Of a stretch of 64,000 nucleotides of DNA, positions 24,883 through 62,165 are shown piece by piece; the first letter of the stretch is position 1; every line of letters starts with the position of its first letter. The notes under the pieces were generated by a model. That model did no database searches, had not been told where the DNA came from, and saw only the letters and a list, made by a program, of their open reading frames with translations. Position numbers and translations under genes: made by a program. The stretch covers positions 8,262-72,261 of the forward strand of contig CAUJGS010000041.1 in the NCBI GenBank assembly GCA_963170185.1. Direction: 5' to 3'. Source of the DNA: Bdellovibrionota bacterium (GTDB lineage Bacteria > Bdellovibrionota > Bdellovibrionia > Bdellovibrionales > JAMPXM01).

Positions 24883-25553
24883 TCTTGGTTTATTTCCGTC
24901 ACGGCATCGCCATGGATCGCGAAGAGTTTGCGCGCTACTGCATCGAAAATGGAATCGAAGCGGACGATGAACGACGTCCGCTGACCGAAGAAGGAGTGCG
25001 TAAGACCAAGCGCACCGTGCACGGTTTGATTCGGTCGCTGAAGTCTTTGGACACGGCCGGTGTCTCGGGGCTTTCGCAAGAAGCCCGACGTGAACTCACG
25101 CGTAAGTCGACAAAGAAAAAACTTTCGCCGCTTCCTGCCTTTCGACCTTTGATCGTTACAAGTCCGCTTCTGCGCGCCAAGCAAACGGCGGTGATTCTTG
25201 CGCAAGGTTTTGCCAAAGCCGGAATTCGTTTAAAGACAAAGCAACCGTTGGAGACAACCACGCTTTCACCGATGCAAGACCCGCAGGAATTTCGCGATTT
25301 CCTCTACGGCCGGCTTCACTCCGATGACTCTCATCGGGTTCATTCGACGACCGTGGTGATTGCCGTCGGTCATGAGCCGCATCTTGGGCAAAGTGTCGCG
25401 TGGTGGATGATGGGTGAAAACCGACCGCGATTTCCATTCAAAAAAGGTGGCGCGACATGTTTGGAAATCGGCGCGGCTTTGGCACCCGGAGAGGCTCGGC
25501 TTTTATGGGCGCTGCCGCCATGGGCTTTGCGAGCAATGGCGCCGCGCGCTTAA
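24879..25553 (+). CDS. histidine phosphatase superfamily protein (SixA-like)
   Basis: MILVYFRHGIA (RHG motif), SPLLRAKQTA, AVGHEPHLG. ATGA overlap with the ppk stop. Confidence 0.7.
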   Translation: MILVYFRHGIAMDREEFARYCIENGIEADDERRPLTEEGVRKTKRTVHGLIRSLKSLDTAGVSGLSQEARRELTRKSTKKKLSPLPAFRPLIVTSPLLRAKQTAVILAQGFAKAGIRLKTKQPLETTTLSPMQDPQEFRDFLYGRLHSDDSHRVHSTTVVIAVGHEPHLGQSVAWWMMGENRPRFPFKKGGATCLEIGAALAPGEARLLWALPPWALRAMAPRA

Positions 25554-25558
25554 GATGT

Positions 25559-26551
25559 CTAAAGCATGCTAGCGAGAAGGCCATCTCGAAGCCCGACAAA
25601 GGGTACGTTTAACGTGTCCGTCGGGATTGATTCCATGATCGCGAGAGTGACGAGGGCCGCCGGTACGATGACGTCTGCTCGGTCGTTTCTTAGTCGCAAG
25701 TAGTGAATACGTTCTTTCACCGACATGGATGCCAGGTGATCGGTCAACTCGTGTAGATCGTCAAAGCTCATCGAATAAATCGAAGTTTTCGAAAGCAGAG
25801 CGACGCGAAGCTTGCCTAGACATTCGAAATTGCCGCCGGTGCCGATGGCGAAATCCACGGACTGGTTGCGAAGGTTTTCTTTGAGGTAGGTTCGCACGGG
25901 CTTCATCGCGCTCTCGATGAGGTTTGGCAGGTGCTTTTCTTTTAAGTTTTTCGAGTCCAAGGTCTCAAGAAGCCGGACCGTGCCTAGCGGAAACGAGCGT
26001 GTCGCCGAGACTTTTTTTCCATCGGCGATCGAGACTTCGACACTGCCGCCTCCGATATCAATCAAAACAGATTTCGAGCCAACCAAGTCGACACGACGTG
26101 CGACGGCCGAGAAGATCAGCTGTCCCTCTTCGAGGCCGTCGATCACTTGCAGCTGAAGTCCTGAGATCTTTTGAATTTCCGCGATCAGGCTATCTCGGTT
26201 TTTCGCTTCGCGAAGGGCGCTGGTGCCGACGGCCCGCACTTGGCGGGCATCGTGTTCTTTGATGAAACGGCGAAACTTGATGAAGGTCTCAACGGTCCGT
26301 TCGATCGACTTTTTGGAGATGGTTCCTGCGGAGAAGGTGTCCTTGCCTAGGCGCACGCCTTCGCGGAATTTTTTTAAGACCTTGATTTCGCCATTTTTGT
26401 CGACTTCGCCAATAACCAGTCGGATAGCGTTTGAACCGACGTCGATCGCTGCGAGGCGAGTCCCGGGTTGGGATTTGCGGCGATTGGAAGGTGTGTAGTT
26501 TTCGAAAGTCGAAGTCGATCCCGTCGTGGCCATGGGTCTAGTACGAAGCAA
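25559..26551 (-). CDS. ppx: Ppx/GppA family exopolyphosphatase
   Basis: LAAIDVGSNAIRLVIGE, VGTSALREAKN, DIGGGSVE: the ASKHA phosphatase motifs. Confidence 0.9.
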   Translation of the reverse strand: MLRTRPMATTGSTSTFENYTPSNRRKSQPGTRLAAIDVGSNAIRLVIGEVDKNGEIKVLKKFREGVRLGKDTFSAGTISKKSIERTVETFIKFRRFIKEHDARQVRAVGTSALREAKNRDSLIAEIQKISGLQLQVIDGLEEGQLIFSAVARRVDLVGSKSVLIDIGGGSVEVSIADGKKVSATRSFPLGTVRLLETLDSKNLKEKHLPNLIESAMKPVRTYLKENLRNQSVDFAIGTGGNFECLGKLRVALLSKTSIYSMSFDDLHELTDHLASMSVKERIHYLRLRNDRADVIVPAALVTLAIMESIPTDTLNVPFVGLRDGLLASML

Positions 26552-26628
26552 TGTCGGTCGGAAATCAAGACCTAACCAATCTCAAACTGAACTCAAACTA
26601 AGGACTGACAACGTTTCCGCGGTTTTGC

Positions 26629-27399
26629 GTGCACGATTTAGTCATGATGATAGCGGACCTCCACGTTCACTCGACCTTCAGCGATGGCAAGCTCACGATT
26701 CCGGAGCTTGTGGACTTCTACGGGACGCGCGGATTCGGCTGTATCGCGATCACCGACCATATCTGCGAGAAGAAGAGCTTTCTTGGATTCGCCGCAGGCG
26801 CCTTGAAGTTCAGCCTAAAGGAAGAGACGTTTGACGATTACCTCAGGCTGATTGCCGAAGAAGGCAAGCGTGCGTGGCGCACTTACCGTATGCATGTGAT
26901 CCCCGGTTATGAGCTCTCTAAAAACTCGTGGTCGCACCATCGTTCCGCTCACGTTTTGGGGATCGGCGTAAAAAGTTGGCTTGCGGCCGAGCTTCCGATC
27001 AGAACTATGACACGTGAACTGCGCGCACAAGGAGCGCTAAGCATTGCGGCGCATCCCGTGTTTACTGGCGTGTTGGAGCCACAAACTTTGCATCTTTGGG
27101 AAAATCGCGAAGAGCTGGCTCAGGAGTTTGATGCGTGGGAAGTTGCTAGCGGCCGCCACTTCTTTCATCAGGTCTATAGCTCAGGCTTAAAAATGGTGGC
27201 TTCAAGCGATCTTCACCATCCCAAGCAAATCCATTCGTGGAAAACTCTTCTCAAGCTTCCGCGAGGTGAGGCCTCGGTCGGTGAGGTTTTAACAGCCGTG
27301 CGCGAGCAAAGACTCGAGTTTGGTTTTTGGAATGAGGCGAGAGGGCAAATCGAGTCGACTGGCGCAACTTGTCAACCCGTGATGGCGCCGCTCTCTTAA
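26629..27399 (+). CDS. PHP-domain metal-dependent phosphoesterase
   Basis: ADLHVHSTFSDGKLTIPELV ... IAITDH ... AAHP. The start could be ATG 26644/26647. Confidence 0.75.
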   Translation: MHDLVMMIADLHVHSTFSDGKLTIPELVDFYGTRGFGCIAITDHICEKKSFLGFAAGALKFSLKEETFDDYLRLIAEEGKRAWRTYRMHVIPGYELSKNSWSHHRSAHVLGIGVKSWLAAELPIRTMTRELRAQGALSIAAHPVFTGVLEPQTLHLWENREELAQEFDAWEVASGRHFFHQVYSSGLKMVASSDLHHPKQIHSWKTLLKLPRGEASVGEVLTAVREQRLEFGFWNEARGQIESTGATCQPVMAPLS

Positions 27400-27444
27400 G
27401 GTTAATTGGCGCTTATCAAGATCACTGTCAGGAGATCCATCAAG

Positions 27445-28485
27445 ATGATTCTTTCGTACACGAAGACACTTCTCGTTTGTTTGGCTTTGGTGACCTCGGC
27501 GTCCGTTTCGCAGGCTGCGGAATCCAAAGGTGGAAAACTTCTCATGACGGGCGCCGGTTCGACGTTCATCAACCCGCTTTTTTCGAAATGGTTTTCCGAG
27601 TACAACAAGAAGTTTCCCAACGTTGAAATCAACTACCAGAGCATCGGTTCTGGTGGCGGTATCAAACAGCTTCAGAAAAAAACAATCGACTTCGGGGCGA
27701 CGGATGTTCCGATGACGGAAAAAGAACTCACTGATGCGGGAGCCCCGGTGCTGCATTTTCCAGTGGCGATTGGTGCGGTCGTGCTCTCGTACAATCTCCC
27801 CGAATTGAAGGGCGAGCTGAATCTCGATGCGGCCACGATTGCCGCGATCGTGAAAGGCAAAATCAAATCGTGGGATGATGCGGCTCTTAAGGCGCTCAAT
27901 CCGACCCTCGCGCTTCCTAAGCGCCCGTTGGTTTTTGTTTATCGTTCGGACTCCTCTGGTACGACCGGCGTATTCACCGAATATCTTGGCAAGAGTGACG
28001 CGACATTTGCCAAGGAAGTGGGAGTCGGCAAAGCCATCAAGTGGCCTACTGGTTTGGGTGGAAAAGGAAACGAGGGAGTCACGGCAAACTTGAAAAACAC
28101 GGTCGGTTCGATCGGCTATGTGGAACTCACCTATGCCTTGAATGAGAAGCTCCGAATGGCTGCGATCAAAAATCCGGCCGGAAAATTCGTTGTCGCAGAA
28201 TTGGGAAGTGTCACGGAGGCGGCTGCGCAGTCGCTGAAGTCGATCCCCGAGGACTTCAAGGTGTCGCTGACCAATGCTCCTGGTGCGAAGTCGTATCCGA
28301 TCTCTTCGTTTGCCTACCTACTGGCGTACGAAAAAACGGCGAAGCCAGCGGGTGAGGAGCTTGTTCGTTTGATGAACTGGGCCCTGGTTGATGGACAAAA
28401 GATGGCGCCGGCCCTTGGCTATGCGCCGCTCCCGGCGGCACTTGTTAAGAAGATGCAGCCCGCGCTGGCCAAGATGGCCAACTGA
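27445..28485 (+). CDS. pstS: phosphate ABC transporter substrate-binding protein PstS
   Basis: Signal peptide MILSYTKTLLVCLALVTSASVSQA. GAGSTFINPLFSKW, YQSIGSGGGIKQ, DSSGTTGVFT. SD AGGAG before ATG 27445. Confidence 0.9.
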   Translation: MILSYTKTLLVCLALVTSASVSQAAESKGGKLLMTGAGSTFINPLFSKWFSEYNKKFPNVEINYQSIGSGGGIKQLQKKTIDFGATDVPMTEKELTDAGAPVLHFPVAIGAVVLSYNLPELKGELNLDAATIAAIVKGKIKSWDDAALKALNPTLALPKRPLVFVYRSDSSGTTGVFTEYLGKSDATFAKEVGVGKAIKWPTGLGGKGNEGVTANLKNTVGSIGYVELTYALNEKLRMAAIKNPAGKFVVAELGSVTEAAAQSLKSIPEDFKVSLTNAPGAKSYPISSFAYLLAYEKTAKPAGEELVRLMNWALVDGQKMAPALGYAPLPAALVKKMQPALAKMAN

Positions 28486-28520: not shown

Positions 28521-29252
28521 TTATCGGAGCTCGTTCACGAGCCTAAAAACGGAGTCGAACATCGGCTCCGTTAGACGTTTGGTATTCGTGTTCTGACGGC
28601 TCGGGTGATAGCTCCCGACTAAAAAAATATGCTCACTGCTTGGTCTGCGCCCGTAGGGTTTTGTGAGTTCCACTTTTGCGAGATGCGCGAATGCCGGCAG
28701 AGGTTTTGGTTTTTCAAAGCCCATCTCGTCGGTCAAGACGTCGAGCGCGGCCTTCCAGGCGATTCCGCCAAGTGCCAACACGACTTTCGGCTTTGCGATC
28801 TCAAAGCGACGAACCAGAAACGGTCGGCATTTTGCGATCTCCGAGGTGCTTGGCTTGTTGTCGGGCGGAGCGCAGTGGGCGACGGCGGTGATGCAGGCGC
28901 CGACAAGCTCATTGTCATTGGCCCTTTCATAGCCAGGGGTTTTTGCGAGTCCCGCTTTGTGAAGAGCGCGGTAGAGCCACTTTCCCGAATCGTCTCCCGT
29001 GAACATTCGCCCTGTGCGGTTGGCGCCATGGGCCGCCGGCGCCAGTCCCACGATCAAGACATCAGACGGTGTTGATCCGAAGTCGGGAACCGGTTTTTTC
29101 CAGTAGAGGTCGTTTCGGACTTCCTCAAGATACGCCTTTCTTGGAAGCGCTTCTCCACGAGCGACCGCCTCGCAGTGTTTGCGAAGTCGAGGGCAGCGTG
29201 TGCAGGCGATTAGGTCGCGATCAAGAGAGGTCGGCATTTTTCTCGGCTTCAT
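28521..29252 (-). CDS. uracil-DNA glycosylase, family 5 (UdgB-like, Fe-S)
   Basis: Motif A GLAPAAHGANRTGRMFTGD, motif B SYHPSRQNTNT, N-terminal Cys cluster CTRCPRLRKHC. Confidence 0.8.
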   Translation of the reverse strand: MKPRKMPTSLDRDLIACTRCPRLRKHCEAVARGEALPRKAYLEEVRNDLYWKKPVPDFGSTPSDVLIVGLAPAAHGANRTGRMFTGDDSGKWLYRALHKAGLAKTPGYERANDNELVGACITAVAHCAPPDNKPSTSEIAKCRPFLVRRFEIAKPKVVLALGGIAWKAALDVLTDEMGFEKPKPLPAFAHLAKVELTKPYGRRPSSEHIFLVGSYHPSRQNTNTKRLTEPMFDSVFRLVNELR

Positions 29253-29631
29253 CGAGTTTTTTCGTGAGGAGATCTTTTATGGTCTGGCGATCGGCTTCGT
29301 TGTTTTGAACCGACAAAAGAAACTCGCCTTCCGGGTAAAGCGCCATGGCGATTCCTTTTGAGCAGAAGTCGATGCAGCCGGACCCGTTCACGCGTGCGCG
29401 GAACTTTCCCTGAAGTCGAGGGCGCTTGATAATTTCATTTCTCAGCCACTCTTTGAGTTCACCGCGAAGGCTATCGGCCCCTAGGGGGCCGCACGATTGT
29501 TTTACGGGTCTGCCGTCGGGGGAGGGGGCTCTCGTATTGGTGCAAATCATTAAGTGAATGTCGAAAGGTCGAGTTTTGTTTTCCACATCTGCTCCGCGAG
29601 TTCCAAAATGGGTGGTTCCAATTCGAGCCAA
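29221..29631 (-). CDS. thioredoxin-like (2Fe-2S) ferredoxin family protein
   Basis: HLMICTNTR ... SCGPLGA ... VNGSGCIDFCSKG, a Cys pattern typical of COG3411-type ferredoxins. Confidence 0.55.
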   Translation of the reverse strand: MARIGTTHFGTRGADVENKTRPFDIHLMICTNTRAPSPDGRPVKQSCGPLGADSLRGELKEWLRNEIIKRPRLQGKFRARVNGSGCIDFCSKGIAMALYPEGEFLLSVQNNEADRQTIKDLLTKKLDEAEKNADLS

Positions 29632-29859
29632 GGCACCACTTGTTAGGGCTTTGATGCTTACATTTCGCTTCAGAAGATTAACGAAATAAAACTAATTGAT
29701 TTAGAAAATCTTCTTGCTTGAGCACGGATTTCGCATCATCGTTAACTCATGGTCATAATCCCTCGAGGGATGGGGCGCAAGAAAGTGAATACTTTCTCAG
29801 TACCTTGTCACCTGATCGAGTAGGAAAATCGACCGAACTCTTATGAAAGGAGGACGAGC

Positions 29860-29997
29860 ATGTTGAACATTCATCTTAAGTCTGATCGCGGAATTTGCGG
29901 TATTACGAAGCGTGATCTTGGTGGAGTCGCGGATATGGAGCTTGTCCTCCTACCAAGCGAACGCCCAGTCGTCGGCGCTTTGGTCGCAGCTAAATAA
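29860..29997 (+). CDS. candidate small ORF (45 aa), below the 60-aa cut-off of the ORF track
   Basis: A perfect SD (AAAGGAGG, 29846-29853) lies 6 nt before ATG 29860. Translation: MLNIHLKSDRGICGITKRDLGGVADMELVLLPSERPVVGALVAAK. A nested stem-loop follows at 30003-30041. Confidence 0.3.
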   Translation: MLNIHLKSDRGICGITKRDLGGVADMELVLLPSERPVVGALVAAK

Positions 29998-30278
29998 GGC
30001 GGCTCGGTAGCCTGGCTATATCAGCTGGGTGAGTAGCGAGCTAAAAACCAAAACTTTAGCAACGCGATCAGAGCCGCAGTTTCAGACGCGGCAACGAAAG
30101 CAGTAGAATTTCGAAAAATAAACGGTGGGCCTAGCGATCCTTCGTTTCCGTTGGCAACGGCGATCTTCCGACGTCTTTCGCAAAACGTTCATCCGTTCGT
30201 TTCAACAATCTGAGGTCGTTTCATCTGTGCCGTCGGGTACGGAAGGGGCGAACTCGTTTTTAAAATTAGGATTTTATA

Positions 30279-30586
30279 TGTATAAAAAGTTAAGTCAGTT
30301 AAATAGCTGGAAATCTGCGGCCGAGAATCAGTTGTCGGTCACGCTGGTTTTGATTTCCGGAGCCGAAGCGGGAAGTGCGAGAAGCAAGAGTTTCTCGAAA
30401 CGACCTTTTCGGGCTTCGAGTTTCGCGAAGATAGCAGTTCGAGTATGGAACACGATGGCGGCAGCCTGGGCTTGGGCCTTTTCTGCTCGTTTGGTTCGCT
30501 CGATCGGTCCTGGCCGTCAGGCGCTTGAAAGACACGAGTTTGAGTCGATCGAGTTAAGACAGGGCGGTTTCGGTGGCCCGTTCTAA
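30279..30586 (+). CDS. doubtful ORF (102 aa from MYKKLSQL), basic Ser/Ala/Arg-rich
   Basis: Internal ATG of ORF 30125..30586, preceded by an AT-rich tract. No SD and no recognisable domain. Listed only because the region is otherwise empty. Confidence 0.2.
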
Positions 30587-30593
30587 AATGCGG

Positions 30594-30623
30594 ATTTCTG
30601 AAATGCTTATTTCCGAAATGCTT
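30594..30623 (+). promoter_or_regulatory. two tandem 15-bp repeats, each containing a TTTCnGAAA palindrome
   Basis: ATTTCTGAAATGCTT (30594-30608) and ATTTCCGAAATGCTT (30609-30623) are immediately followed by AAAGGAGG (30624-30631). Confidence 0.4.
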
Positions 30624-30926
30624 AAAGGAGGGGCGGTTTTGCTTCGGGATGCCTATTCAAACTATGGCGACCTATAAGTGCAAATCGCACCCTCCGTGTT
30701 CTCCTTTCTAAACATCGCTTATGCACCCTGAAATATTGCCAGTGACCGTGGACGGCACTTAGACGCGTGGCTCCACTATGGTACCACTTTAACCGTCCGT
30801 GTTTTCGCCAGTTTATCTGGTGTCAAAACGACCTGGCGCAAAGCTTGCCTGCACGTTACCGGCGGAAGAACCGGTGGACCGAATCGGTGAGACCATTGCC
30901 TCCAGACGGCAAGAAACGAGGGTGCA

Positions 30927-31874
30927 GTGCTGAATACAAAGATTCCATCACGCATGGAAACTCAGCTCGAAACGAGAGACTCGAAACTCTCGACGGCTGC
31001 GCTCTTTGTTTTCTTTGTTGTGTTCGTAGGTCTTGTCTCAAACTTCCTCGCGTCGCGCGCCAACGCTCAGGCGGCAGCTCTTGCGAACGATCCGGCGACC
31101 TTGGCGGCAAATGCGGCTCAGGCGGAAAACCAAAGCCCGTTCCTCTTCACAGGCCAGTTCTTGCTCGAGACAACGCGTTCAGCAAACGAAGCTGAGCCGA
31201 TCTCGTACGGCGGCTGGTACCAGCTCACCGGTTCGGCGATCCATAAAAAAACGGCTATCAACGCAACAGCGCGGGTCGGTTACACCCGCGAATACTCGTA
31301 CGAGCGTGACGACGGGTCGGTTGGTTCGTTTGATAACCCCGGCCTCTCGCTCGCAAAGAGCTTCCGAAACGGAAAAGACTACGAGTTCTCGTACCTCGAT
31401 GCGGTTTCGGTTTCTGTCAGTGGCTCGATCGGTGCCAACGACGAATCACGGCGTCGCTCGTTCCTTTGGTCCAATGGAGTCAGCGTCACAGGTGCGAAAA
31501 CTCTGGGGAATTGGAACCTGCGCCAAGGGTTCGGCTACACGCACTCGTTTTATGAGTACGACATCCGAGATAGCGGCGTGGTGAATGCGCCGCACACGCT
31601 TCGCAGCACGACGATGGCGTTTTATTCGTTGAACGATCAGATTTCTTTCGGTGCGAGTGTTCTCTACGGATACTCGATCAGCTTCCAAGGTGTTGGACGA
31701 GCAACGACGATGGCTCAGTTCAGCGCTGACTATGCATTTACAGATAAAGTTTCGGCCTCTCTTGGAGTCGCGTCAGAACGCGGCACTTTGGAGCCCGACG
31801 GCCAAACAAATCGGATCCGGTTTTACGCGCCCGAGGCGGCGACGTATTTCTTCGATCTGATCGTCTCGCTGTAA
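30927..31874 (+). CDS. putative outer-membrane beta-barrel protein
   Basis: Signal peptide ending ASRANAQ. Alternating-hydrophobicity strands rich in Y/G/S (ARVGYTREYSY, GFGYTHSFYEY, SVLYGYSISF). Lies upstream of the metalloprotease gene. Confidence 0.55.
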   Translation: MLNTKIPSRMETQLETRDSKLSTAALFVFFVVFVGLVSNFLASRANAQAAALANDPATLAANAAQAENQSPFLFTGQFLLETTRSANEAEPISYGGWYQLTGSAIHKKTAINATARVGYTREYSYERDDGSVGSFDNPGLSLAKSFRNGKDYEFSYLDAVSVSVSGSIGANDESRRRSFLWSNGVSVTGAKTLGNWNLRQGFGYTHSFYEYDIRDSGVVNAPHTLRSTTMAFYSLNDQISFGASVLYGYSISFQGVGRATTMAQFSADYAFTDKVSASLGVASERGTLEPDGQTNRIRFYAPEAATYFFDLIVSL

Positions 31875-31935
31875 GGACATAAAGGAAAGCGTGTCTCTAG
31901 TTGAGAGATACGGTTGAAACCAGAAAGGGGCCGAC

Positions 31936-34900
31936 ATGGCTCAGGGGCAGAACAAGATGGGTAAATTCGCAACACTGGTTGCTGTATTTGCGGCGTTGGC
32001 GCTTTCGGCTTGTACGAAGACGAAAGAGACCAAGTCGATGGTCAGCCCTGATCATTATATGTCGAAGGCCGACTTCGAAGGGAAAACCTTCTCGCTCGTC
32101 CGCGGGATCGAAGAAGCAGACTCGAACAACACGGTCGGCGCGATCCCTGGTTTTTCGGAGGACTTCGGTTTTGTAACGGTACGTATTACCGAGACGGAGC
32201 TTCAGTTCATCGAGGCCTTCAATCCTCAGAATAAAAAGGAGACTCAGTCGGTCTTGGCATCTTTCGCCATCAAAGACCACTTTGATATCCAACGCGAAGA
32301 AAACGACTTCAAAGAGACAACTCACCGGATCGTTGAGAACCGTGAGCGCCCTTGGAACCAACGGAAATTCATTCGCGTTGATTTCAGTCGTCCAACAAAT
32401 GAAAAGTCGCGTTTGTCGTCATCGACCCAAGATCCAACAGCTCCAACAGAAAACGTCGTTCAGCTGGCTGATCCAAAGGTTGAGGCTGACGGCCATATCT
32501 CTTGGTTGACCGAGTTCTCGGCGGCTGGTGGCAGCTTCTGGTGGGGCGTTGAGAACAACTCGCGCGTTGTTGCTCGCACGCATCTCATGCCAGTGAAAGC
32601 TACCGATTACGAAAAGCTCAACTACCGCGAAAAGGACTTCCAGCGTTTCGGTTTCTTCTACACGCGTCAGTTGCTCGAAGACCCTGAGAAGGGTTTCTTG
32701 GACTCGAAGCTTGAAGACAACACATACGCGTTGATGCACAACGTTTGCGAAGCCGGACGCACGGACAAAAATGGCAAACCGCTTTCGTGCTCGACGAACA
32801 AAATCGTATGGCACCTCTCAAAAGGCTTCGCCGAGAAGTACAAAGACGTCACTCGCAAGGCTGTTAAAGAGTGGAACGATGTTTTCAAGAAGTCGCTCGG
32901 CCGTTCGGACGACGTCGTAGTTCTAAACGAAGATCTCGCGGTGGATGTCGTTGATCCACGTTACAACACACTTGCGTACTACGGCGCGAAGTCGCCAGGC
33001 GGTCTCTTGGGTGTCGCGCAATGGGCGTCGAACCCTGTGACGGGCGAACTGATCGCGGCTCGCGCGACAGTTTACGAAGATGGTATCCGTGGAACTCTTG
33101 GTTGGGTTGATGACATCATCACGATGATCCTCAATGACGAAGAGGTTCGTAAACTCTTCTTGGCATCCGACGAGGAAGCAAAAGAGCGTCTTTCTCGCTT
33201 GTTCCCATCGACTGGTGGATTCAAGGTTCAGGAAGATATTCAAAAGCTTCGTATGAGCATGGGTATGCCTGTTCATTCGGATCTTCGCGTCGGTTCGGAT
33301 CTCCTCGCGGACTCGCACGGAGCTACGACTGCTTTGAAGAAAGATTCGAAGTCTTTGGCGGCAAACTTTGCTCGCGGTCAAAAGTCGCCTTTCCAGAGCC
33401 AGTCTTACCGTAATTATCTCTCGCGCAAGCTGGCTGAGCCAGTGGGTCGCGGTCTGGCGCGCAAAGAAGCCTTGATGAAAAAGGCTCCCGAACTCTTTGC
33501 GGTTTCGGAAGTCGATCGTCTTGGCGGCGCAATCGGTGGTTATGACTACTCGTTTGGCTTGATCGGTGCCAAGCAACCAGCGAAGTCGCGCTTGCCTTCG
33601 ATTCAAGGTCTTGAGCACTTGCATGATGTAGGTTCGGCTCTTCGTGAAGAGCGCGCTCGCATGGTTAACCAGGCTCACACAGGTGTTCACGGTGCGGAGC
33701 TTGTTGAAGAAGCGGCGATCCGTTACATCCGTAAGATCTTGGCGAAATACCCGAACGTGAATGACTTCAAGGGTCAGGTCGCGGTGATCAAAGCTGAAAT
33801 CGACCAGCTGACGTTCTACACGACAATGCTTCACGAAATGGGGCATGCGTTCGGCCTTCGTCATAACTTCCACGGTTCTTCGGACTCAAAGCACTACCAC
33901 CCTGAGTACTTCCGTCTCTCGAAGCAGATCGAGTCCGAAGCGGCTTTGCCTGCTGACCAGAAGACAGTGACTCCAGACGACCTGCATCCGTTCATGTTCT
34001 CGTCGATCATGGATTACGGCGGCGACTTCTACGCTCAGGCGGGTGGACTCGGTCCGTATGATTTCGCGGCGATCAAGTACGCTTACAACCGTACAACGGA
34101 TCGCAACGAAGATCCCGTTGTGAAGTCTGGCTACAAGTTCTGTACGGACCACCAGGTCAACGACACGATCCTCTGTCGTCGTTTCGACAAGGGTCGTAAC
34201 GTTTCCGAGATCACGGCGAACATGATCGAGGACTACCACAATAACTGGGTTCTCTCTCACTTCCGTCGTGACCGTGCGAACTTTGAACAGCGCGCTCGTA
34301 GTTACCCAATGGCGGCTCTTGTTCGCTACTTCATTCCGATCCGTCAGGTCATGGACGAGTACATCTACTCGTTGATCGATGCGAAAGATGTTGCGGCTGG
34401 TGAAAACGAGTGCGGTATGGAGCACTGGAAAAAATCGGTCGATGCGGGCGAGATCGTCAACGTCTGTGACCCGCTTGCGGCTGAGCAGGTAGGTGTTGAT
34501 CCGACGGATCTTTCGACGTTCGCTGCGGGCCTTTTTGGCGAGCAGGGACTTCGCAAGAACCCAATGGAGTACGAAGCCTACGGTTTGGCTGACTTGGTTT
34601 ACGCCGATGCGATTGCGAAGCAGTTCTTCGTTGAAGTTCTTGGTTCGGCAGAGCCCGGCACGTTCATCGCGCTTCCAATTGCTCCTGGAAAGTTCCAACT
34701 CGAACAGATTCCTTCGAGCGGTGACCTTGAAGAAAACTTGGCGCAGTTCGCAGCCGAGCGTGGGTTCCCGACGACACCTGACGTGATCGGTCAGATGAAA
34801 CAACTTGTGGGTCGTATCGACATCGGTCGCTATGGAAAACCATTTGTTTCGGAAGCCGACGAGACAGGTCCGTTTGTTCGTCAAAAGAATATCGGAGCCT

Positions 34901-36144
34901 TCTTCGACAAGTACGTAGCGATGATAGCTCTTGGTATCAAAGACATCGGTGTGCCGAAGTACTACCGCCGTTCGATGACGGGCAACGCGTACGCGTACCC
35001 ACAGACGAAGGACTTCGCGACTCAGATGATCAAGGCGATGATCACGCAGAAGGATCGTATCTTGACGATTCCGTTTAAGACACAAGTCGGAGTTATTCCG
35101 GTTGCTGTTGAGCCGTCGTTGAACCTCGATGTTAAGGCGATTGGGACGATCACGGCCCTTGTCGACTTCGTTTCGGATTCGGATGAATCGATTGCGGATT
35201 CGCTTCGCGTCTGTTCGCTCAATGACCAAGGGTGCCGCGCTGGTTTTGGTCAGAAGACAGTTGAGTTCACGACTGCAAGCGGTCAGGACGTTTACCGTTC
35301 GGTTCAGACTCTGAAGGAAGATTCGATTTCGTTCGATCTTTTGACAGAAGCTGCGGCGATCGACAAAGAGCGTAAAGAGTGGGTCACAAAGCTGCAAAAA
35401 GCTTCGGACACAATCGCTACGAACATCATGAAGCTAGAAGAGCTTAAGCCAGTTCGCGAATCGATGATCAAGACGCTTGAATCTCTTGAGATCGCGGAGA
35501 TGGCGCAGATTCTTCCGATGGTTTTCACTGACGACGAAAAGACACCGTCGCTGTGGAATATCACGAAATTGGTTGCGACAAAGGGCGAGGAGATTCCTCT
35601 GTTCCTGACGTTGAACATGACTCAGCAAGCGGGTGGCGCGTTGGAAGCTGTCGGCGGGCTGATCGTAGCGGAGATCCAAAAGATCGACCCTAAGAACGAG
35701 TGTCCTGTTCCGATGGCAGTTGAAGGTGAAGAGCCGGTAGAAGCACAGGGTGGAGATAAGCAGGGACCAAATGGTGGCCTGCCGACCGTAACGGGACTTC
35801 GTGGTCGCGCGAACGGAATTCGCCTTGCGGGTGGCGCGGTCTTGCGCCCAGGCTCTCCTCTTCTCAACAACAATGCACCAGTTGTTCAGCCAAATGGTCC
35901 GGCAACGGCTGAAGAGCCTAAGATGCCGGCGCATTGCGCGGAAATCTTGGAGCGGAAAAAGACTCTTGTCGCGGCGGTGACTGAGTTCCAAGGCTTCGCA
36001 AAAGGTGTTGGAGAACTCTTGAATGGTGCGCTTGAAATCAAAGTCGCTCCGCTTCGCGTGAAACGTGCGACGGATGAGCTTCAGCGTGCCGAAGCCAATA
36101 TTCGATTGATTCGCCGTGTATCGAAAGCGGTCGGTCTCGAATAA
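31936..36144 (+). CDS. large zinc metalloprotease lipoprotein (metzincin-type HExxHxxGxxH)
   Basis: Lipobox FAALALSAC. Active site TMLHEMGHAFGLRHNFHGSSD. 1402 aa. SD AAAGGGG before ATG 31936. Confidence 0.85.
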   Translation: MAQGQNKMGKFATLVAVFAALALSACTKTKETKSMVSPDHYMSKADFEGKTFSLVRGIEEADSNNTVGAIPGFSEDFGFVTVRITETELQFIEAFNPQNKKETQSVLASFAIKDHFDIQREENDFKETTHRIVENRERPWNQRKFIRVDFSRPTNEKSRLSSSTQDPTAPTENVVQLADPKVEADGHISWLTEFSAAGGSFWWGVENNSRVVARTHLMPVKATDYEKLNYREKDFQRFGFFYTRQLLEDPEKGFLDSKLEDNTYALMHNVCEAGRTDKNGKPLSCSTNKIVWHLSKGFAEKYKDVTRKAVKEWNDVFKKSLGRSDDVVVLNEDLAVDVVDPRYNTLAYYGAKSPGGLLGVAQWASNPVTGELIAARATVYEDGIRGTLGWVDDIITMILNDEEVRKLFLASDEEAKERLSRLFPSTGGFKVQEDIQKLRMSMGMPVHSDLRVGSDLLADSHGATTALKKDSKSLAANFARGQKSPFQSQSYRNYLSRKLAEPVGRGLARKEALMKKAPELFAVSEVDRLGGAIGGYDYSFGLIGAKQPAKSRLPSIQGLEHLHDVGSALREERARMVNQAHTGVHGAELVEEAAIRYIRKILAKYPNVNDFKGQVAVIKAEIDQLTFYTTMLHEMGHAFGLRHNFHGSSDSKHYHPEYFRLSKQIESEAALPADQKTVTPDDLHPFMFSSIMDYGGDFYAQAGGLGPYDFAAIKYAYNRTTDRNEDPVVKSGYKFCTDHQVNDTILCRRFDKGRNVSEITANMIEDYHNNWVLSHFRRDRANFEQRARSYPMAALVRYFIPIRQVMDEYIYSLIDAKDVAAGENECGMEHWKKSVDAGEIVNVCDPLAAEQVGVDPTDLSTFAAGLFGEQGLRKNPMEYEAYGLADLVYADAIAKQFFVEVLGSAEPGTFIALPIAPGKFQLEQIPSSGDLEENLAQFAAERGFPTTPDVIGQMKQLVGRIDIGRYGKPFVSEADETGPFVRQKNIGAFFDKYVAMIALGIKDIGVPKYYRRSMTGNAYAYPQTKDFATQMIKAMITQKDRILTIPFKTQVGVIPVAVEPSLNLDVKAIGTITALVDFVSDSDESIADSLRVCSLNDQGCRAGFGQKTVEFTTASGQDVYRSVQTLKEDSISFDLLTEAAAIDKERKEWVTKLQKASDTIATNIMKLEELKPVRESMIKTLESLEIAEMAQILPMVFTDDEKTPSLWNITKLVATKGEEIPLFLTLNMTQQAGGALEAVGGLIVAEIQKIDPKNECPVPMAVEGEEPVEAQGGDKQGPNGGLPTVTGLRGRANGIRLAGGAVLRPGSPLLNNNAPVVQPNGPATAEEPKMPAHCAEILERKKTLVAAVTEFQGFAKGVGELLNGALEIKVAPLRVKRATDELQRAEANIRLIRRVSKAVGLE

Positions 36145-39301: not shown

Positions 39302-40126
39302 ATGGGATTGTCGCGTTGGAGTTTCTTGAGTTCGCTTTCTGTCGTCGTCGTGTTTGGCGCGATGGAGTATGGACAAGCGGCGATTGACCGCAAGTCGGAA
39401 TGGATCACGCCGAAGGCTTCGGAGAAAAACGCAGGCAAAGATGCGGTGAAGCCAGTGGCGGGCGTGAAGCCCGGTAAGTCGGTTTCGATTCAGCAAACGA
39501 TGATTGCTTTGGAGCTTCCGTTTGAAAATCGCATCGCGGCTTTGCGGGCGCAGGGGCCTCAGGGCTACAAGAATCTTCGAGATATCATGTTTGGTCGCGA
39601 CAGCAAGATCGATTCGCGCTGGCGGGCGACGATGGCGCTTGGACGCATCGGTGGACGTTTTAGTCTTCCGGAGCTTGAGCGCGCCTCGAAGGCCAGTGTT
39701 TGGGAGCTTCGCAGTGCTGCTTTGATCGCTGTTTCAAGAATCGATCGCGCGACGGCGTCGAAATGGTCGCGTCGCTTGTTGCAAGACAAGGCTCTCTTGG
39801 TGCGATTGACGGCTGTTGAAACTCTAGAGACGGTGGGAGATCGCACGGCGATTCCCGAGCTCTGGGCGCAGCTCGATAGCCGGCAAAACTTCAAAGGTAG
39901 TCGAAGTCTCTTCATTCGTCGTCGGATCGTGGAGGCTTTGACGAAGCTCGAGTCTCCGACAGCCACGGCTCGGTTTGCTCGACTTTTAGAAGAAGAAGAT
40001 CCGCAGATTCATCGTTCTGCGATTTTGGCTCTTGAGAAACTAACAGGGCAAACCATGGGAAAACCAAGCGACCCGCTTTCGCGTCGCCGAGCTCTGTGGC
40101 AGCAGTGGCAGTCGACTCAAGGCTGA
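39302..40126 (+). CDS. HEAT-repeat protein
   Basis: Start at ATG 39302, 1 nt after the upstream stop, with a signal-like N-terminus. Repeated WRATMALGRIG / VWELRSAALIAVSRI / VRLTAVETLETVGD / RSAILALEKL helices. Confidence 0.7.
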   Translation: MGLSRWSFLSSLSVVVVFGAMEYGQAAIDRKSEWITPKASEKNAGKDAVKPVAGVKPGKSVSIQQTMIALELPFENRIAALRAQGPQGYKNLRDIMFGRDSKIDSRWRATMALGRIGGRFSLPELERASKASVWELRSAALIAVSRIDRATASKWSRRLLQDKALLVRLTAVETLETVGDRTAIPELWAQLDSRQNFKGSRSLFIRRRIVEALTKLESPTATARFARLLEEEDPQIHRSAILALEKLTGQTMGKPSDPLSRRRALWQQWQSTQG

Positions 40127-40638
40127 TTCTTCTTGTTCGCTTTGTCGTTGGCTTTTGCGATGGCGCGTGCGAGTTGAAGTTCGCGCCCGATTCGATAGAG
40201 AATGACCTGCTCCTCTAAACCGTCGCTTTTTTGTGTGACGGGTTCCGAGAAAAAGTCCCTTAAAATTTCAGCGCGCTTGGTGATCTGCACTTTGATGGCG
40301 GGTTTGTCTTCCGAGCGTCCGCGGACGAGACGCACGAGAAGTCGATAGCGATACCCTGGTGAGAGCGGCCCTGGTTCGAGAGGCGAACGAAACCGCGCTT
40401 CACCTTTGATGAAGTCCGTTTCGAAAATTCCGGCTTCGGTATTATCCACCTTTTGTGGGTAGCGAATCATGGACTGCTTGAGGGCGATCTCGACATCTTC
40501 GTAGTTGGCATAGAAGACCCGGCTATAAGGACCGCTCGAATTTTTGCGCTCTTCAAGACGCTGAGTCGCCGTCGTGCAAGCCGACAACGACAACAACAGC
40601 GATATGGCTAAGAAAGAAATATTGCCGCGCAACTGCAC
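40117..40638 (-). CDS. lipoprotein, function unknown
   Basis: GTG at 40638 gives M-QLRGNISFLAISLLLSLSAC (lipobox). In-frame sequence upstream overlaps the preceding gene. The start codon lies inside a repeat-family hairpin. Confidence 0.6.
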   Translation of the reverse strand: MQLRGNISFLAISLLLSLSACTTATQRLEERKNSSGPYSRVFYANYEDVEIALKQSMIRYPQKVDNTEAGIFETDFIKGEARFRSPLEPGPLSPGYRYRLLVRLVRGRSEDKPAIKVQITKRAEILRDFFSEPVTQKSDGLEEQVILYRIGRELQLARAIAKANDKANKKNQP

Positions 40639-40675
40639 GGCAAGCAGTACCGACCGGAGGTCGGTACGCCACCTA
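40621..40675 (-). repeat. two-hairpin repeat family, locus C
   Basis: Minus strand reads TAG-GTGGCG-TACCGACC TCC GGTCGGTA-CTGC-TTGCCGTGC AGTT GCGCGGCAA-TATTT. From CTGCT to ATTT it matches locus D at 27 of 31 positions. Confidence 0.8.
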
Positions 40676-42951: not shown

Positions 42952-43028
<77 letters not shown>

Positions 43029-54233: not shown

Positions 54234-54353
54234 TGCTGGCGAGCATGAACTTCTGGTTGTCAGTCAGGCAAATTGTGATCGAGACGAGGTGGATTTTATT
54301 GCTGCGGAAGTCAGTTTGTTGCTGAAACACGGAAGAGGCGTTAGGCTGTAAGT

Positions 54354-54590: not shown

Positions 54591-54597
54591 TTCGAAA

Positions 54598-54629
54598 TAA
54601 AAAAGAGCCGGTATTCACCGGCTCTTTTT
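54598..54629. terminator. bidirectional intrinsic terminator
   Basis: AAAAAAA-GAGCCGG-tattca-CCGGCTC-TTTTT, with A- and T-tracts on both sides. Confidence 0.85.
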
Positions 54630-54644
54630 CGTCGAGTGCTAGTA

Positions 54645-61600: not shown

Positions 61601-61601
61601 C

Positions 61602-62057: not shown

Positions 62058-62103
62058 CTTGCAATTCGAATATTGCCCACGGCAGGGCGAGATCGAAAAT
62101 TGT

Positions 62104-62131: not shown

Positions 62132-62165
62132 CAGGTGGCGGCTGCATTCGGAGTTCGGCACGCCA

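What the first reader, a model, noticed from the sequence alone, without database searches (positions are those of the whole stretch)
29632..30926. 1.3-kb ORF-poor, AT-richer region upstream of the OMP/metalloprotease pair
This is the largest non-coding stretch in the window. The supplied track has no ORF of 60 aa or more in any frame between 29632 and 30124. The ORFs offered for 30125-30926 have atypical, low-complexity composition or overlap the real OMP gene out of frame. The region has AT-rich blocks (ttaacgaaataaaactaattgatttagaaaatc; tttttaaaattaggattttatatgtataaaaagttaagtcagttaaatag). It has an 8-bp inverted repeat AGAAGATT/AATCTTCT (29672-79 / 29707-14) bracketing an AT-rich 27-mer. 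It also has a chain of short hairpins and three CGTTTC(A/C) direct repeats (about 30144, 30198, 30217). It could hold one or more sRNAs, a long structured leader for 30927..36144, or the remains of a decayed gene.
Basis: seen in the sequence. Interest (0 to 1): 0.55.

Follow-up and report, generated by a model that had tools for sequence, protein, structure and literature searches.

The report
Two small genes plus two promoters
The supposedly empty 1.3-kb gap in this predatory-bacterium (Bdellovibrionaceae) genome holds two conserved small protein genes, one with a self-locking ribosome-binding site, followed by a probable sigma-54 promoter for the outer-membrane-protein/protease genes, so it is a compact ordinary control region and not junk or a dead gene.

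Summary
The gap is real: 1,340 nt (29587-30926), no ORF of 60 aa or more in 29632-30124, GC 0.49 against 0.536. It is not non-coding.

Comparison with 25 or more syntenic Bdellovibrionales loci shows five features:
1. A sigma-70-like promoter with an AT-rich upstream tract (29672-29742).
2. ORF A (29860-29997, 45 aa). Its invariant strong SD, GAAAGGAGG, is paired with an in-ORF anti-SD (29940-29951). The hairpin occurs in 17/17 loci, with compensatory changes.
3. ORF B (30278-30586, 102 aa). It is under purifying selection (dN/dS 0.2-0.3). It belongs to a Pfam-less family of 55-141-aa proteins with the core VRxVGPxxRPxERHEFE. It always sits at this position.
4. A strong hairpin with a U/C-rich tail (30627-30712), probably a terminator.
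5. A 180-nt block that is the best-conserved stretch of the gap. It ends in a sigma-54-type -24/-12 element, TGGCGC-N5-TTGC (30834-30848). This element is kept upstream of the OMP gene in 17 of 24 loci, and conservation collapses just after it.

There is no Rfam hit, no consensus RNA fold in the block, and no pseudogene trace. The CGTTTC repeats are chance.

This is mostly ordinary anatomy. The modest novelty is an uncharacterised small-protein family and the SD-locked mini-ORF.

The parts
29221..29586 (-). Left boundary gene: 2Fe-2S ferredoxin-like protein, 121 aa, GTG start. The 136-aa TTG reading that gave the finding its start of 29632 is probably too long.
   Evidence: Called as 121 aa on the near-identical contigs L001 and L002. 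Weak NCBIfam 2Fe-2S ferredoxin hits. Conserved in synteny.
29605..29627 (-). Conserved sequence just upstream of the ferredoxin-like gene. On the - strand it reads ATTGGAACCACCCATTTTGGAAC, with TTGGAAC twice. It is probably that gene's own leader or operator and is not part of the + strand units.
   Evidence: Conserved in 7 related loci.
29672..29714 (+). It abuts the -35 hexamer, so it is read as a UP-element-like tract of the ORF A promoter and the divergent promoter spacer.
   Evidence: Inverted repeat (I1). GC. An AT-rich run lies directly 5' of the TTGC hexamer in W, L025, L030, L031, L008, L032, L004 and L017. The repeat itself is kept only in L003.
29714..29742 (+). Candidate sigma-70-type promoter of ORF A: -35 TTGCTT (29714-29719), 17-nt spacer containing the conserved TTTCGCAT, -10 CATCGT (29737-29742). 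The predicted start is about 29750.
   Evidence: TTGCNN-N17/18-[CA]ANNNT recurs upstream of the ORF A SD in 12 loci. It is a conservation peak. nhmmer finds it in L008 and L032 as well. It was not mapped experimentally, and the tool's own scan preferred TTCGCA-18-CATAAT at 29730-29759, which is less conserved.
29845..29859 (+). Extended Shine-Dalgarno GAAAGGAGG (29845-29853) plus spacer. It is the 5' arm of the SD-locking hairpin.
   Evidence: [TC]GAAAGG[AG]GG followed 6-7 nt later by ATG in all 17 loci examined. It is the only GAAAGGAGG in the 64-kb window, and AAGGAGG occurs only 4 times.
29860..29997 (+). ORF A, a 45-aa mini-ORF (MLNIHLKSDRGICGITKRDLGGVADMELVLLPSERPVVGALVAAK). It is probably translated. 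The peptide is weakly conserved (N-terminal MI/ML, C-terminal [VAI]-K).
   Evidence: Called by gene finders on L001, L002 and L025 and on a no-DNA place (43 aa). It is open in 17/17 loci, 24-64 codons: 711 codons in total against 312 in the +2 frame. 13/17 end in G[TC]CAA[AG] followed by TAA, TAG or TGA. In the closest pairs dN/dS is about 1 with unusually low pS (0.16 against 0.64 in the OMP gene; 0.06 against 0.33 in ORF B), which indicates an overlapping RNA-level constraint.
29940..29951 (+). Anti-SD GCTTGTCCTCCT inside ORF A. It is the 3' arm of the hairpin that sequesters the ORF A SD.
   Evidence: 12-nt arms, 92% complementary (I7). The MFE folds pair SD with the anti-SD in most loci. 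Duplex energy for W is -23.9 against -13.1 +/- 2.3 kcal/mol for shuffles, and a CCUCC-type partner lies 53-131 nt downstream in every locus. 77.5% of cells are paired against 67.4% shuffled (0/500) and 42-54% slid; 27 double-change cells against 14.8 (0/500).
30085..30170 (+). Conserved non-coding element between ORF A and ORF B (...TCGAAAAATAAACGGTGGGCCTAGCGATCCTTCGTTTCC...). Its role is unresolved. It could be an internal promoter (TTCAGA-17-TAGAAT at 30081-30109) or part of the ORF B leader.
   Evidence: Conservation peak. nhmmer finds it only in the closer lineages W, L003, L025, L029, L027, L030 and L031. Promoter-like match.
30278..30586 (+). ORF B, a 102-aa protein. It has a variable basic N-terminal part, a central hydrophobic or amphipathic helix, and a conserved C-terminal motif ...LVRSIGPGRQALERHEFESIELRQGGFGGPF. 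It is an uncharacterised family. The AT-rich block at 30257-30306 is its translation-initiation region and first codons.
   Evidence: tblastn hits at the syntenic position in every locus that includes it. Alignment. 43 clusters, all Bdellovibrionales/Bdellovibrionota MAGs and all annotated as hypothetical, and the exact W protein is already in NCBI and Logan (P0048). 102 representatives at E<=1e-3 among 1.84 billion proteins; all but one (P0151, 901 aa, a weak hit in a different profile region) are 55-141 aa. dN/dS is 0.20-0.30 with pS as in the OMP gene. No Pfam or NCBIfam hit. AF2 mean pLDDT 59, two helices, C-terminal motif unstructured. The upstream GTG extension (30125) is interrupted in L003.
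30627..30712 (+). Strong hairpin (GGAGGGGCG... / ...CGCACCCTCC, 30627-30695; apical CATAAG) followed by the conserved U/C-rich tail GTGTTCTCCTTTCTAAA. It is read as the terminator of the ORF A/ORF B unit, or an insulator ahead of the next promoter.
   Evidence: MFE -31.8 kcal/mol, z -3.2 in W. Equivalent hairpins have z -2.5 to -4.5 in L025, L027, L030, L031, L032, L005 and L004; L003 is weaker (z -1.07). Stems differ between lineages, while the tail CCGTGTTYTCCTTTC and the loop ATAAG are conserved. The U-tract is imperfect, and the scan tool did not call it.
30725..30828 (+). Conserved upstream boxes of the OMP promoter: ACCCTGAAAT (30725-30734), CTTAGACGC...GCTCCACTATGGTACC (30758-30785) and TGGTGTCAAAA (30818-30828). 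They are candidate activator, architectural or other protein-binding sites.
   Evidence: This is the highest conservation of the whole gap (0.8-0.9 column identity, above ORF B). It is found by nhmmer in distant loci and stays with the OMP gene when other genes are inserted between ORF B and OMP (L008). There is no consensus RNA structure, and the single-sequence fold z is -1.25 (+ strand) and -0.61 (- strand). The only alifold helix pairs two invariant boxes, with 1 covarying pair.
30834..30848 (+). Sigma-54 (RpoN)-type -24/-12 promoter element TGGCGCAAAGCTTGC (GG 30835-36, GC 30847-48). The predicted transcription start is about 30860, giving an approximately 67-nt leader to the OMP start codon.
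   Evidence: [TC]GGC-N7-TTGC lies 30-245 nt upstream of the OMP gene, same strand, in 17 of 24 loci at weighted score >=12.5 of 15, against 2.7% of random 330-nt windows. It is the only one of 5 matches in the window that is intergenic. Conservation drops immediately 3' of it. An RpoN-like sigma factor gene (bd0843) is predicted in B. bacteriovorus (PMC3464611).
30927..36144 (+). Right boundary: a 315-aa putative outer-membrane protein (30927-31874, no family hit) and a 1402-aa Met-zincin-like metalloprotease (31936-36144). This is the unit served by the sigma-54-type promoter.
   Evidence: The pair is conserved downstream of ORF A/ORF B in all loci.

Best explanation
The gap is a densely used control and small-gene region with two units.

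Unit 1 (29672-30712):
- A sigma-70-type promoter with an AT-rich upstream tract starts a transcript near 29750.
- The transcript first encodes a 45-aa mini-ORF (ORF A). Its exceptionally strong ribosome-binding site is held closed by base-pairing with a CCUCC segment 80 nt downstream, inside the same ORF. Initiation is therefore limited or conditional, and once a ribosome reads through it opens the lock.
- The same transcript probably also encodes ORF B. This is a 102-aa protein with a central hydrophobic helix and a conserved, apparently unstructured C-terminal motif (VRxVGPGxRxLERHEFE...GGFGxxF).
- The unit ends at a strong hairpin with a U/C-rich tail.

Unit 2 (30725-30926):
- A highly conserved DNA block ends in a sigma-54 -24/-12 element.
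- The OMP/metalloprotease operon is therefore expressed only when an enhancer-binding ATPase, not encoded in this window, activates RNA polymerase-sigma-54. The conserved boxes upstream are the likely protein-binding sites.

Shown: the conservation, the coding signal of ORF B, the open frame of ORF A, the SD/anti-SD pairing with covariation, the hairpin, and the -24/-12 motif with its conservation.

Inferred: the transcript boundaries, co-transcription of ORF A and ORF B, termination at the hairpin, sigma-54 dependence, and any regulatory link between ORF A/ORF B and the OMP/protease operon.
For: - Synteny. The order PBP, UDG(-), Fd(-), ORF A, ORF B, OMP, protease holds in all loci that span the region, including a distant one.
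- ORF B. Protein-level conservation, dN/dS 0.2-0.3, clear third-position variation, and a family of small proteins.
- ORF A. Invariant extended SD plus ATG, and an open frame in 17/17 loci. The stop codon alternates between TAA, TAG and TGA behind a conserved Lys codon.
- SD lock; 0/500 shuffles reach the observed pairing or the covariation score, and slid controls give 42-54% paired against 77.5%.
- ORF A promoter pattern.
- Hairpin.
- Sigma-54 element.
- The conserved block has no consensus RNA fold, and conservation stops at the -12 element.
- An RpoN-like gene (bd0843) is predicted in the cultured relative B. bacteriovorus.
Against: - There are no expression data of any kind.
- The proposed -10 hexamers of the ORF A promoter are weak (CANNNT).
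- The hairpin tail is not a clean U-tract, and its sequence and loop are more conserved than a terminator needs.
- Two lineages (L004, L017) lack a good -24/-12 match.
- No enhancer-binding protein (GAFTGA) is encoded in the 64-kb window, and rpoN could not be checked in this genome.
- One conserved box (TGGTGTCAAAA) lies at about -33 to -43, unusually close for an activator site.
- In the closest pairs ORF A shows dN/dS of about 1, so peptide-level selection is weak or masked.
- The arm alignment used for the pair counts was anchored on the best duplex, which favours the core pairs.
Confidence: 0.6

Rival explanations
1. The conserved 180-nt block (30667-30850) is transcribed and acts as RNA. 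It would be a structured leader of the OMP operon, or a small RNA derived from the 3' end of the ORF B transcript. On this reading the TGGC-N7-TTGC motif is incidental.
For: - Each locus has a strong hairpin at the 5' edge of the block, with lineage-specific stems.
- The boxes TGGTACCA and TGGTGTCA can pair over 8 bp, and L008 and L030 carry a pairing-compatible G-to-A change.
- The tail CUCCUUUC is complementary to the invariant GAAAGGAG of ORF A (I13).
Against: - RNAalifold finds no consensus structure over 14 loci and only 1 covarying pair over 7.
- Single-sequence fold z-scores are -1.25 and -0.61.
- There is no Rfam hit even at E<=5.
- GG-N10-GC is kept in lineages where everything around it has diverged, and conservation ends right after it.
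- L005 and L011 lack one of the two supposedly pairing boxes.
Confidence: 0.2
2. ORF A is not translated. The GAAAGGAGG...CCUCC helix is the closing stem of a non-coding RNA, and the open frame is a by-product.
For: - In the closest pairs dN/dS is about 1 and synonymous sites are far more conserved than in neighbouring genes.
- Peptide length (24-64 aa) and sequence vary widely.
- The helix shows covariation.
Against: - ATG lies 6-7 nt after the SD in 17/17 loci.
- The frame is open in all loci (711 codons against 312 in the +2 frame).
- 13/17 end with a [VAI]-Lys codon pair followed by any of the three stop codons. This is a coding-type pattern, not an RNA-motif pattern.
- In at least 8 loci the anti-SD sits in the same reading frame (NNC CTC CNN), by my own reading of the sequences printed.
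- There is no Rfam family.
Confidence: 0.2
3. The region is the remnant of a decayed larger gene (pseudogene) or an otherwise non-functional spacer.
For: - GC is lower than in the surroundings.
- There are no long ORFs.
- A 153-aa ORF has odd composition if it is read from GTG 30125.
Against: - Several sub-regions are more conserved than the flanking small genes, out to relatives with about 40% OMP identity.
- ORF B is under purifying selection.
- No frame-disrupted similarity to any larger protein was seen.
- A gap of similar size is maintained in all relatives.
Confidence: 0.02
4. ORF A with its SD-sequestering fold is the toxin mRNA of a type I toxin-antitoxin pair.
For: It is a small ORF with a strong SD buried in a long-range mRNA fold, as in hok or tisB-type mRNAs (from my own knowledge of those systems).
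Against: - The peptides are hydrophilic and lack a transmembrane segment.
- The position is fixed and syntenic, and it is single-copy across a whole clade rather than patchy.
- No antisense promoter or terminator pair was found, beyond one weak - strand promoter-like match at 30298-30271 in ORF B.
Confidence: 0.03

Closest known systems
Sigma-54 (RpoN)-dependent promoters with upstream activator sites, e.g. glnAp2 or pspA of enterobacteria (own knowledge of the consensus TGGCAC-N5-TTGCW)
   Same: GG and GC are exactly 10 nt apart and match most of the extended consensus. The element is intergenic, correctly oriented and conserved across orthologous loci. A conserved block lies 30-135 nt upstream where activator or architectural proteins could bind.
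   Different: No activator gene, no recognisable activator-site palindrome and no IHF site were identified. One conserved box lies immediately upstream of -24. Two lineages lack the motif. Sigma-54 dependence is untested.
SD-sequestering mRNA hairpins that gate translation (RNA thermometers such as ROSE or fourU; long-range SD occlusion in hok/tisB-type mRNAs; leader-peptide ORFs such as ermCL or tnaC)
   Same: The ribosome-binding site is base-paired with a complementary CCUCC segment. The pairing is kept by compensatory changes. The ORF is short, and its peptide is conserved mainly at its ends.
   Different: The helix spans 53-131 nt of variable sequence, and the anti-SD lies inside the ORF it controls. 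No trigger (temperature, ligand, antibiotic, amino acid) is evident. No attenuator or terminator follows ORF A. The peptide is not hydrophobic. It matches no Rfam family.
Rho-independent (intrinsic) terminators
   Same: A GC-rich stem-loop lies 41 nt after the ORF B stop codon, followed by a pyrimidine-rich tail. The stems differ between lineages while the hairpin is kept.
   Different: The tail is GUGUUCUCCUUUC, not a run of U. The tail and the apical ATAAG are sequence-conserved, which a plain terminator does not require.
Uncharacterised small bacterial proteins of about 100 aa with one hydrophobic helix (small membrane or membrane-associated regulators)
   Same: The size, the single central hydrophobic helix, the conserved short C-terminal motif and the fixed position next to an envelope-related operon.
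   Different: No family in Pfam, NCBIfam or PDB-based knowledge could be assigned. Hydrophobicity is borderline for a transmembrane helix (mean Kyte-Doolittle 1.5). The function is unknown.

Membership tests
Sigma-54-dependent promoter | GG (-24) and GC (-12) dinucleotides separated by exactly 10 nt | tested here: met
   TGGCGCAAAGCTTGC at 30834-30848
Sigma-54-dependent promoter | Match to the extended consensus TGGCACG-N4-TTGCW | tested here: met
   Weighted score 13 of 15 in W and 12.5-13.5 in 16 further loci. Only 0.7% of random 330-nt windows reach 13, and 2.7% reach 12.5.
Sigma-54-dependent promoter | Intergenic, upstream of a gene and on its strand, and conserved at the orthologous position | tested here: met
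   It is the only intergenic match of 5 in the window. It lies 30-245 nt upstream of the OMP gene in 17 of 24 loci, including very distant ones. It is absent in L004 and L017.
Sigma-54-dependent promoter | rpoN present in the genome | not testable with these tools
   It is not in the window. An RpoN-like sigma factor gene (bd0843) is predicted in B. bacteriovorus HD100 (PMC3464611).
Sigma-54-dependent promoter | Cognate enhancer-binding protein and its upstream binding sites | tested here: inconclusive
   No GAFTGA-type ATPase is encoded in the 64-kb window. Conserved boxes exist upstream, but no known site pattern was recognised.
Sigma-54-dependent promoter | Transcription start about 12 nt downstream of GC and loss of expression without RpoN | not testable with these tools
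   No expression data are available.
SD-sequestering translational control hairpin | Ribosome-binding site base-paired to a complementary segment of the same mRNA | tested here: met
   29848-29859 pairs with 29940-29951. Duplex energy is -23.9 kcal/mol against -13.1 +/- 2.3 for shuffles. MFE folds.
SD-sequestering translational control hairpin | Pairing maintained in relatives through compensatory changes | tested here: met
   A partner is present in 17/17 loci. Seven pairs have double changes. 27 double-change cells against 14.8 +/- 2.9 (0/500). 77.5% paired against 42-54% slid. Caveat: the 3' arm was anchored on the best duplex.
SD-sequestering translational control hairpin | A defined trigger that opens the helix (temperature, ligand, trans factor, upstream translation) | not testable with these tools
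   None is evident from the sequence. The interior of the hairpin is not conserved, which argues against a ligand-binding aptamer.
Rho-independent terminator | Stable GC-rich stem-loop downstream of a stop codon | tested here: met
   30627-30695, -31.8 kcal/mol, z -3.2. Equivalent hairpins occur in 7 more loci.
Rho-independent terminator | Run of U directly after the stem | tested here: inconclusive
   The tail GUGUUCUCCUUUCU is U/C-rich, but with at most 3 consecutive U. It was not called by the scan.
Any Rfam family (riboswitch, sRNA, leader) | Covariance-model match | tested here: not met
   No match at gathering score in the window except tRNA-Met. No match with E<=5 in 29400-31100.
Pseudogene / decayed gene | Frame-disrupted similarity to an intact larger homologue | tested here: not met
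   Only intact small ORFs are conserved. The small proteins have no larger homologues, apart from one 901-aa weak hit in a different profile region (P0151).
Type I toxin-antitoxin | Small hydrophobic membrane peptide | tested here: not met
   The ORF A peptides are hydrophilic, with no transmembrane stretch.
Known protein families (Pfam, NCBIfam) for ORF A and ORF B | Profile match above threshold | tested here: not met
   No hit apart from sub-threshold noise.

The most novel reading that the evidence does not exclude
ORF A, ORF B and the sigma-54-driven OMP/metalloprotease operon would form one clade-specific regulatory module of predatory Bdellovibrionota. The SD-locked mini-ORF would act as a sensor, with its translation opened by a cue such as temperature, ribosome availability or a prey-derived signal. 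It would set the level of ORF B. ORF B would be a membrane-associated protein whose conserved unstructured C-terminal motif (ERHEFE...GGFGxxF) contacts the unknown enhancer-binding protein or the protease, and so gates secretion-related proteolysis. A sub-variant: the conserved anti-SD-like tail CUCCUUUC after ORF B pairs with the invariant GAAAGGAG of ORF A as a feedback RNA.
Probability: 0.12. Interest if true: 0.6.

Novelty: new member of a known kind. Interest (0 to 1): 0.3.

Why it matters
It corrects an annotation-level impression. The largest "empty" stretch of this window is in fact fully occupied by small genes and regulatory DNA.

It also yields three concrete, testable predictions for an uncultured Bdellovibrionaceae lineage:
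- A sigma-54-controlled OMP and giant metalloprotease operon.
- A previously undescribed small-protein family (55-141 aa, core VRxVGPxxRPxERHEFE) that is strictly linked to that operon.
- A mini-ORF whose very strong ribosome-binding site is kept base-paired by covarying sequence across the clade.

If the protease module is predation-related, these elements are its likely control switches. None of the individual element types is new to biology.

Tried and rejected
- **Rfam.** cmscan of the whole window and a permissive scan of 29400-31100 found only tRNA-Met, elsewhere in the window.
- **Plasmid DNA search.** blastn of the gap against plasmids found nothing.
- **Exact-product look-up.** The 136-aa reading of the left gene is not on record, because its start was wrong.
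- **Two JGI contigs.** They gave gene tables but no DNA.
- **RNAalifold on the conserved block.** With 14 loci it found no structure. With 7 loci it found one helix between invariant boxes with a single covarying pair. I therefore rejected the structured-leader reading as the main explanation.
- **The conserved CATAAG as a stop codon.** I tested whether it ends a tiny ORF that starts after the second AAGGAGG (30625). The frame is not kept in L003 or L029, judged by eye, so I rejected it.
- **Sigma-70, sigma-28 or NtrC-type palindromes in the block.** The spacings do not fit or are not constant between lineages (my own inspection).
- **The CGTTTC(A/C) repeats.** They are at chance frequency and are not conserved.
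- **The 153-aa GTG-extended reading of ORF B.** Its N-terminal extension is interrupted in L003.
- **Structure prediction of ORF B.** Confidence was too low (pLDDT 59) to justify a fold search.
- **Topology of ORF B from charge bias.** Not decisive.
- **A second profile search with distant family members.** It returned only unnamed proteins.
Full report
**Observation**

The window around the finding was read directly.
- Between the minus-strand ferredoxin-like gene and the plus-strand 315-aa gene there is no ORF of 60 aa or more in 29632-30124.
- GC of 29632-30926 is 0.493, against 0.536 for the window. That is rank 15 of 1255 same-size windows, and the window's minimum lies here.
- The quoted AT-rich blocks, the inverted repeat at 29672-29714 (I1) and the three CGTTTC(A/C) copies are all present.

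Three corrections are needed.
- On two near-identical public contigs the left gene is called as 121 aa from GTG 29586. The gap is therefore 29587-30926, 1340 nt.
- The gap is the largest gene-free stretch only if the ORF in 30125-30586 is dismissed.
- CGTTTCM occurs 33 times in the window against 33.1 expected, and two of the three local copies are not kept in the closest relative.

**Origin and comparators**

The 1402-aa protease is encoded on two Logan contigs that are 99.9% identical to the window.

A protein search with the 315-aa protein gave a graded series of 47 homologues. Scans of genome and metagenome collections and exact-product look-ups then delivered loci L003-L033. All are from uncultured Bdellovibrionaceae, Bdellovibrionales or Bdellovibrionota MAGs or metagenomes.

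In every locus that spans the region the gene order is: phosphate-binding-like PBP, UDG (-), ferredoxin-like (-), gap, OMP-like, roughly 1400-aa metalloprotease. The gap is 1.1-2.5 kb in all of them. A large intergenic interval is therefore a conserved property of the locus.

**ORF B is a real gene**

tblastn with the translation of 30278-30586 hits the syntenic gap of every relative that includes it. The aligned proteins share a variable N-terminal part, a hydrophobic helix and a conserved C-terminus...VRxVGPGxRxLERHEFExxExRxGGFGxxF.

- Gene callers had already called it on public contigs.
- The exact window protein is in NCBI and Logan as an unnamed or hypothetical protein (P0048).
- Pairwise dN/dS is 0.20-0.30, with synonymous divergence as high as in the OMP gene. 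The nucleotide alignment shows third-position variation across the motif.
- The GTG-extended 153-aa reading is not supported, because its extension is interrupted in L003.
- An exhaustive profile search of 1.84 billion representatives found 102 proteins at E<=1e-3. All but one are 55-141 aa and match through their C-terminal half, with the core VRxVGPxxRPxERHEFE. The exception is P0151, 901 aa, a weak hit in a different profile region.
- A distant member (P0129) sits in the same synteny.
- There is no Pfam or NCBIfam match.
- AlphaFold2 gives two helices and an unstructured C-terminal motif at low confidence (pLDDT 59). Hydrophobicity of the central helix is borderline for a membrane span.

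The function is unknown. The strict linkage suggests a role connected with the downstream OMP/protease pair.

**ORF A and its SD lock**

In all 17 loci examined, [TC]GAAAGG[AG]GG is followed 6-7 nt later by ATG and an open frame of 24-64 codons. GAAAGGAGG occurs once in the 64-kb window, and AAGGAGG only four times against 7.4 expected. This is therefore an unusually strong ribosome-binding site for this genome.

The peptides are poorly conserved. However, they start with MI/ML, and 13 of 17 end in G[TC]CAA[AG] followed by TAA, TAG or TGA. That is a [VAI]-Lys-stop in which the stop codon varies as a stop codon should. The frame is open over 711 codons in total, against 312 in the +2 frame.

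In the two closest pairs, synonymous sites of ORF A are much less diverged than in neighbouring genes (pS 0.16 against 0.64, and 0.06 against 0.33), and dN/dS is about 1. This points to an overlapping RNA constraint.

That constraint is visible.
- The SD and the bases after it (29848-29859) are complementary to 29940-29951 inside the ORF (I7).
- MFE folds pair them in most loci.
- A CCUCC-type partner with extended complementarity lies 53-131 nt downstream in every locus. Per-locus shuffle p-values range from below 0.003 to 0.32.
- The bases flanking the SD core differ between lineages and their partners change with them: ACGAGC/GCUUGU, UAGC/GCUA, UCGC/GCGG, CUGC/GCAG, and GGGGGACC/GGUCCCUC.
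- On an ungapped arm alignment, 77.5% of cells pair, against 67.4 +/- 2.1% after shuffling (0/500) and 42-54% when slid. 27 cells carry changes on both sides, against 14.8 +/- 2.9 (0/500). The caveat is that the 3' arm was positioned by best duplex, which favours the core.

I conclude that ORF A is a probably translated mini-ORF whose initiation site is kept closed by a conserved hairpin. The interior of the hairpin is not conserved, which argues against a ligand-binding aptamer. What opens it is unknown.

**Promoter of unit 1**

A conserved segment at 29707-29751 fits TTGCNN-N17-[CA]ANNNT, preceded by an AT-rich tract. The same arrangement recurs upstream of the ORF A SD in 12 loci, at variable distance from it.

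The repeat itself is kept only in L003. The -10 hexamers are weak, so this is a prediction only.

A second conserved element (30085-30170) between ORF A and ORF B is restricted to the closer lineages and remains unexplained. It overlaps a promoter-like match.

**Hairpin after ORF B**

41 nt after the ORF B stop codon, 30627-30695 folds into a long stem (-31.8 kcal/mol, z -3.2). It is followed by GUGUUCUCCUUUCU. Equivalent hairpins with different stem sequences precede the conserved tail CCGTGTTYTCCTTTC in at least eight further loci.

The simplest reading is a terminator or insulator of the ORF A/ORF B unit. The imperfect U-tract, and the conservation of the tail and of the apical ATAAG, are not explained by that reading.

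**The conserved block and the sigma-54 element**

The best-conserved part of the whole gap is 30667-30850. Column identity is 0.7-0.9, higher than in ORF B. A profile of it finds distant loci. In L008, where two opposite-strand genes are inserted after ORF B, the block stays next to the OMP gene.

It ends in TGGCGCAAAGCTTGC (30834-30848), which is GG-N10-GC within TGGC-N7-TTGC, the sigma-54 -24/-12 pattern.
- A weighted consensus score of 12.5 or more is reached upstream of the OMP gene, on its strand, in 17 of 24 loci, including the most distant ones (L010, L014, L022, L023, L033). Only 2.7% of random 330-nt windows reach that score.
- Of the five matches in the window, this is the only intergenic one.
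- Conservation falls immediately downstream of it.
- RNAalifold finds no consensus structure in the block. A seven-sequence fold yields only a helix between two invariant boxes, with one covarying pair. Single-sequence z-scores are unremarkable.
- B. bacteriovorus is predicted to encode an RpoN-like sigma factor (bd0843) (PMC3464611).

I therefore read the block as DNA: a sigma-54 promoter with upstream protein-binding boxes (ACCCTGAAAT; CTTAGACGC...TATGGTACC; TGGTGTCAAAA). The predicted start is near 30860, and the leader is short and poorly conserved.

Weak points:
- No enhancer-binding ATPase is encoded in the window.
- rpoN could not be checked in this genome.
- Two lineages lack the motif.
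- One box lies unusually close to -24.

**Comparison and verdict**

Each element belongs to a familiar class: small protein genes, a sigma-70-type promoter, an SD-occluding hairpin, a terminator-like hairpin and a sigma-54 promoter. None matches a curated RNA or protein family.

The suspicion of conserved RNA structure was right in two places.

Novelty is limited to a new, clade-restricted small-protein family and a conserved SD-locked mini-ORF of unknown trigger. Their fixed position next to a sigma-54-type promoter of an OMP/giant-protease operon suggests a regulatory module but does not show one.

Noticed in passing
window 29605-29627 (- strand): ATTGGAACCACCCATTTTGGAAC, with TTGGAAC twice, lies 19-41 nt upstream of the ferredoxin-like gene's GTG. 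It is conserved in seven relatives, and in L027, L030 and L031 it reads TGGCAC...TGGAAC. It may be an operator or leader of that gene.
   Followed up: partly
window 30625-30631 and 29847-29853: AAGGAGG occurs only 4 times in 64 kb, against 7.4 expected. Two of the four are in this gap, and both are base-paired to a CCUCC segment in predicted hairpins.
   Followed up: partly
window 30698-30708 vs 29845-29855: The conserved tail after ORF B (GTTCTCCTTTC) is complementary to the invariant ORF A ribosome-binding site (GAAAGGAGGAC) 842 nt upstream, and it resembles the typical 3' end of bacterial 16S rRNA (a resemblance recalled from my own knowledge, not checked). It could be chance in a pyrimidine-rich terminator tail.
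   Followed up: no
L010 4457-5362, L014 3277-4380, L033 8445-9374 (all - strand); L008 4375-5523: In several lineages a trypsin-like serine protease gene (two unnamed opposite-strand ORFs in L008) is inserted on the opposite strand between ORF B and the OMP promoter block. The block and the sigma-54-like motif stay with the OMP gene.
   Followed up: partly
window 39967-40672, 61601-62165, 54234-54730: Other stretches of 500-700 nt without an ORF of 100 aa or more. The first is longer than either half of the gap studied here.
   Followed up: no
window about 50150-51600: This is the second-lowest GC region of the window (about 0.49 over 1.3 kb).
   Followed up: no
window 42952-43028: tRNA-Met (CAT), the only Rfam or ARAGORN hit in the window.
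   Followed up: yes
window 25474-28485 and loci L001, L032, L033: The conserved neighbourhood upstream is phosphate-related: polyphosphate kinase, Ppx/GppA, a PHP-domain protein and a PstS-like binding protein.
   Followed up: no
L001 4114-5464 vs window 29587-30926: The otherwise 99.9%-identical contig L001 has a gap 11 nt longer than the window's (1351 against 1340 nt, with indels inside the intergenic region). L002 is identical.
   Followed up: no
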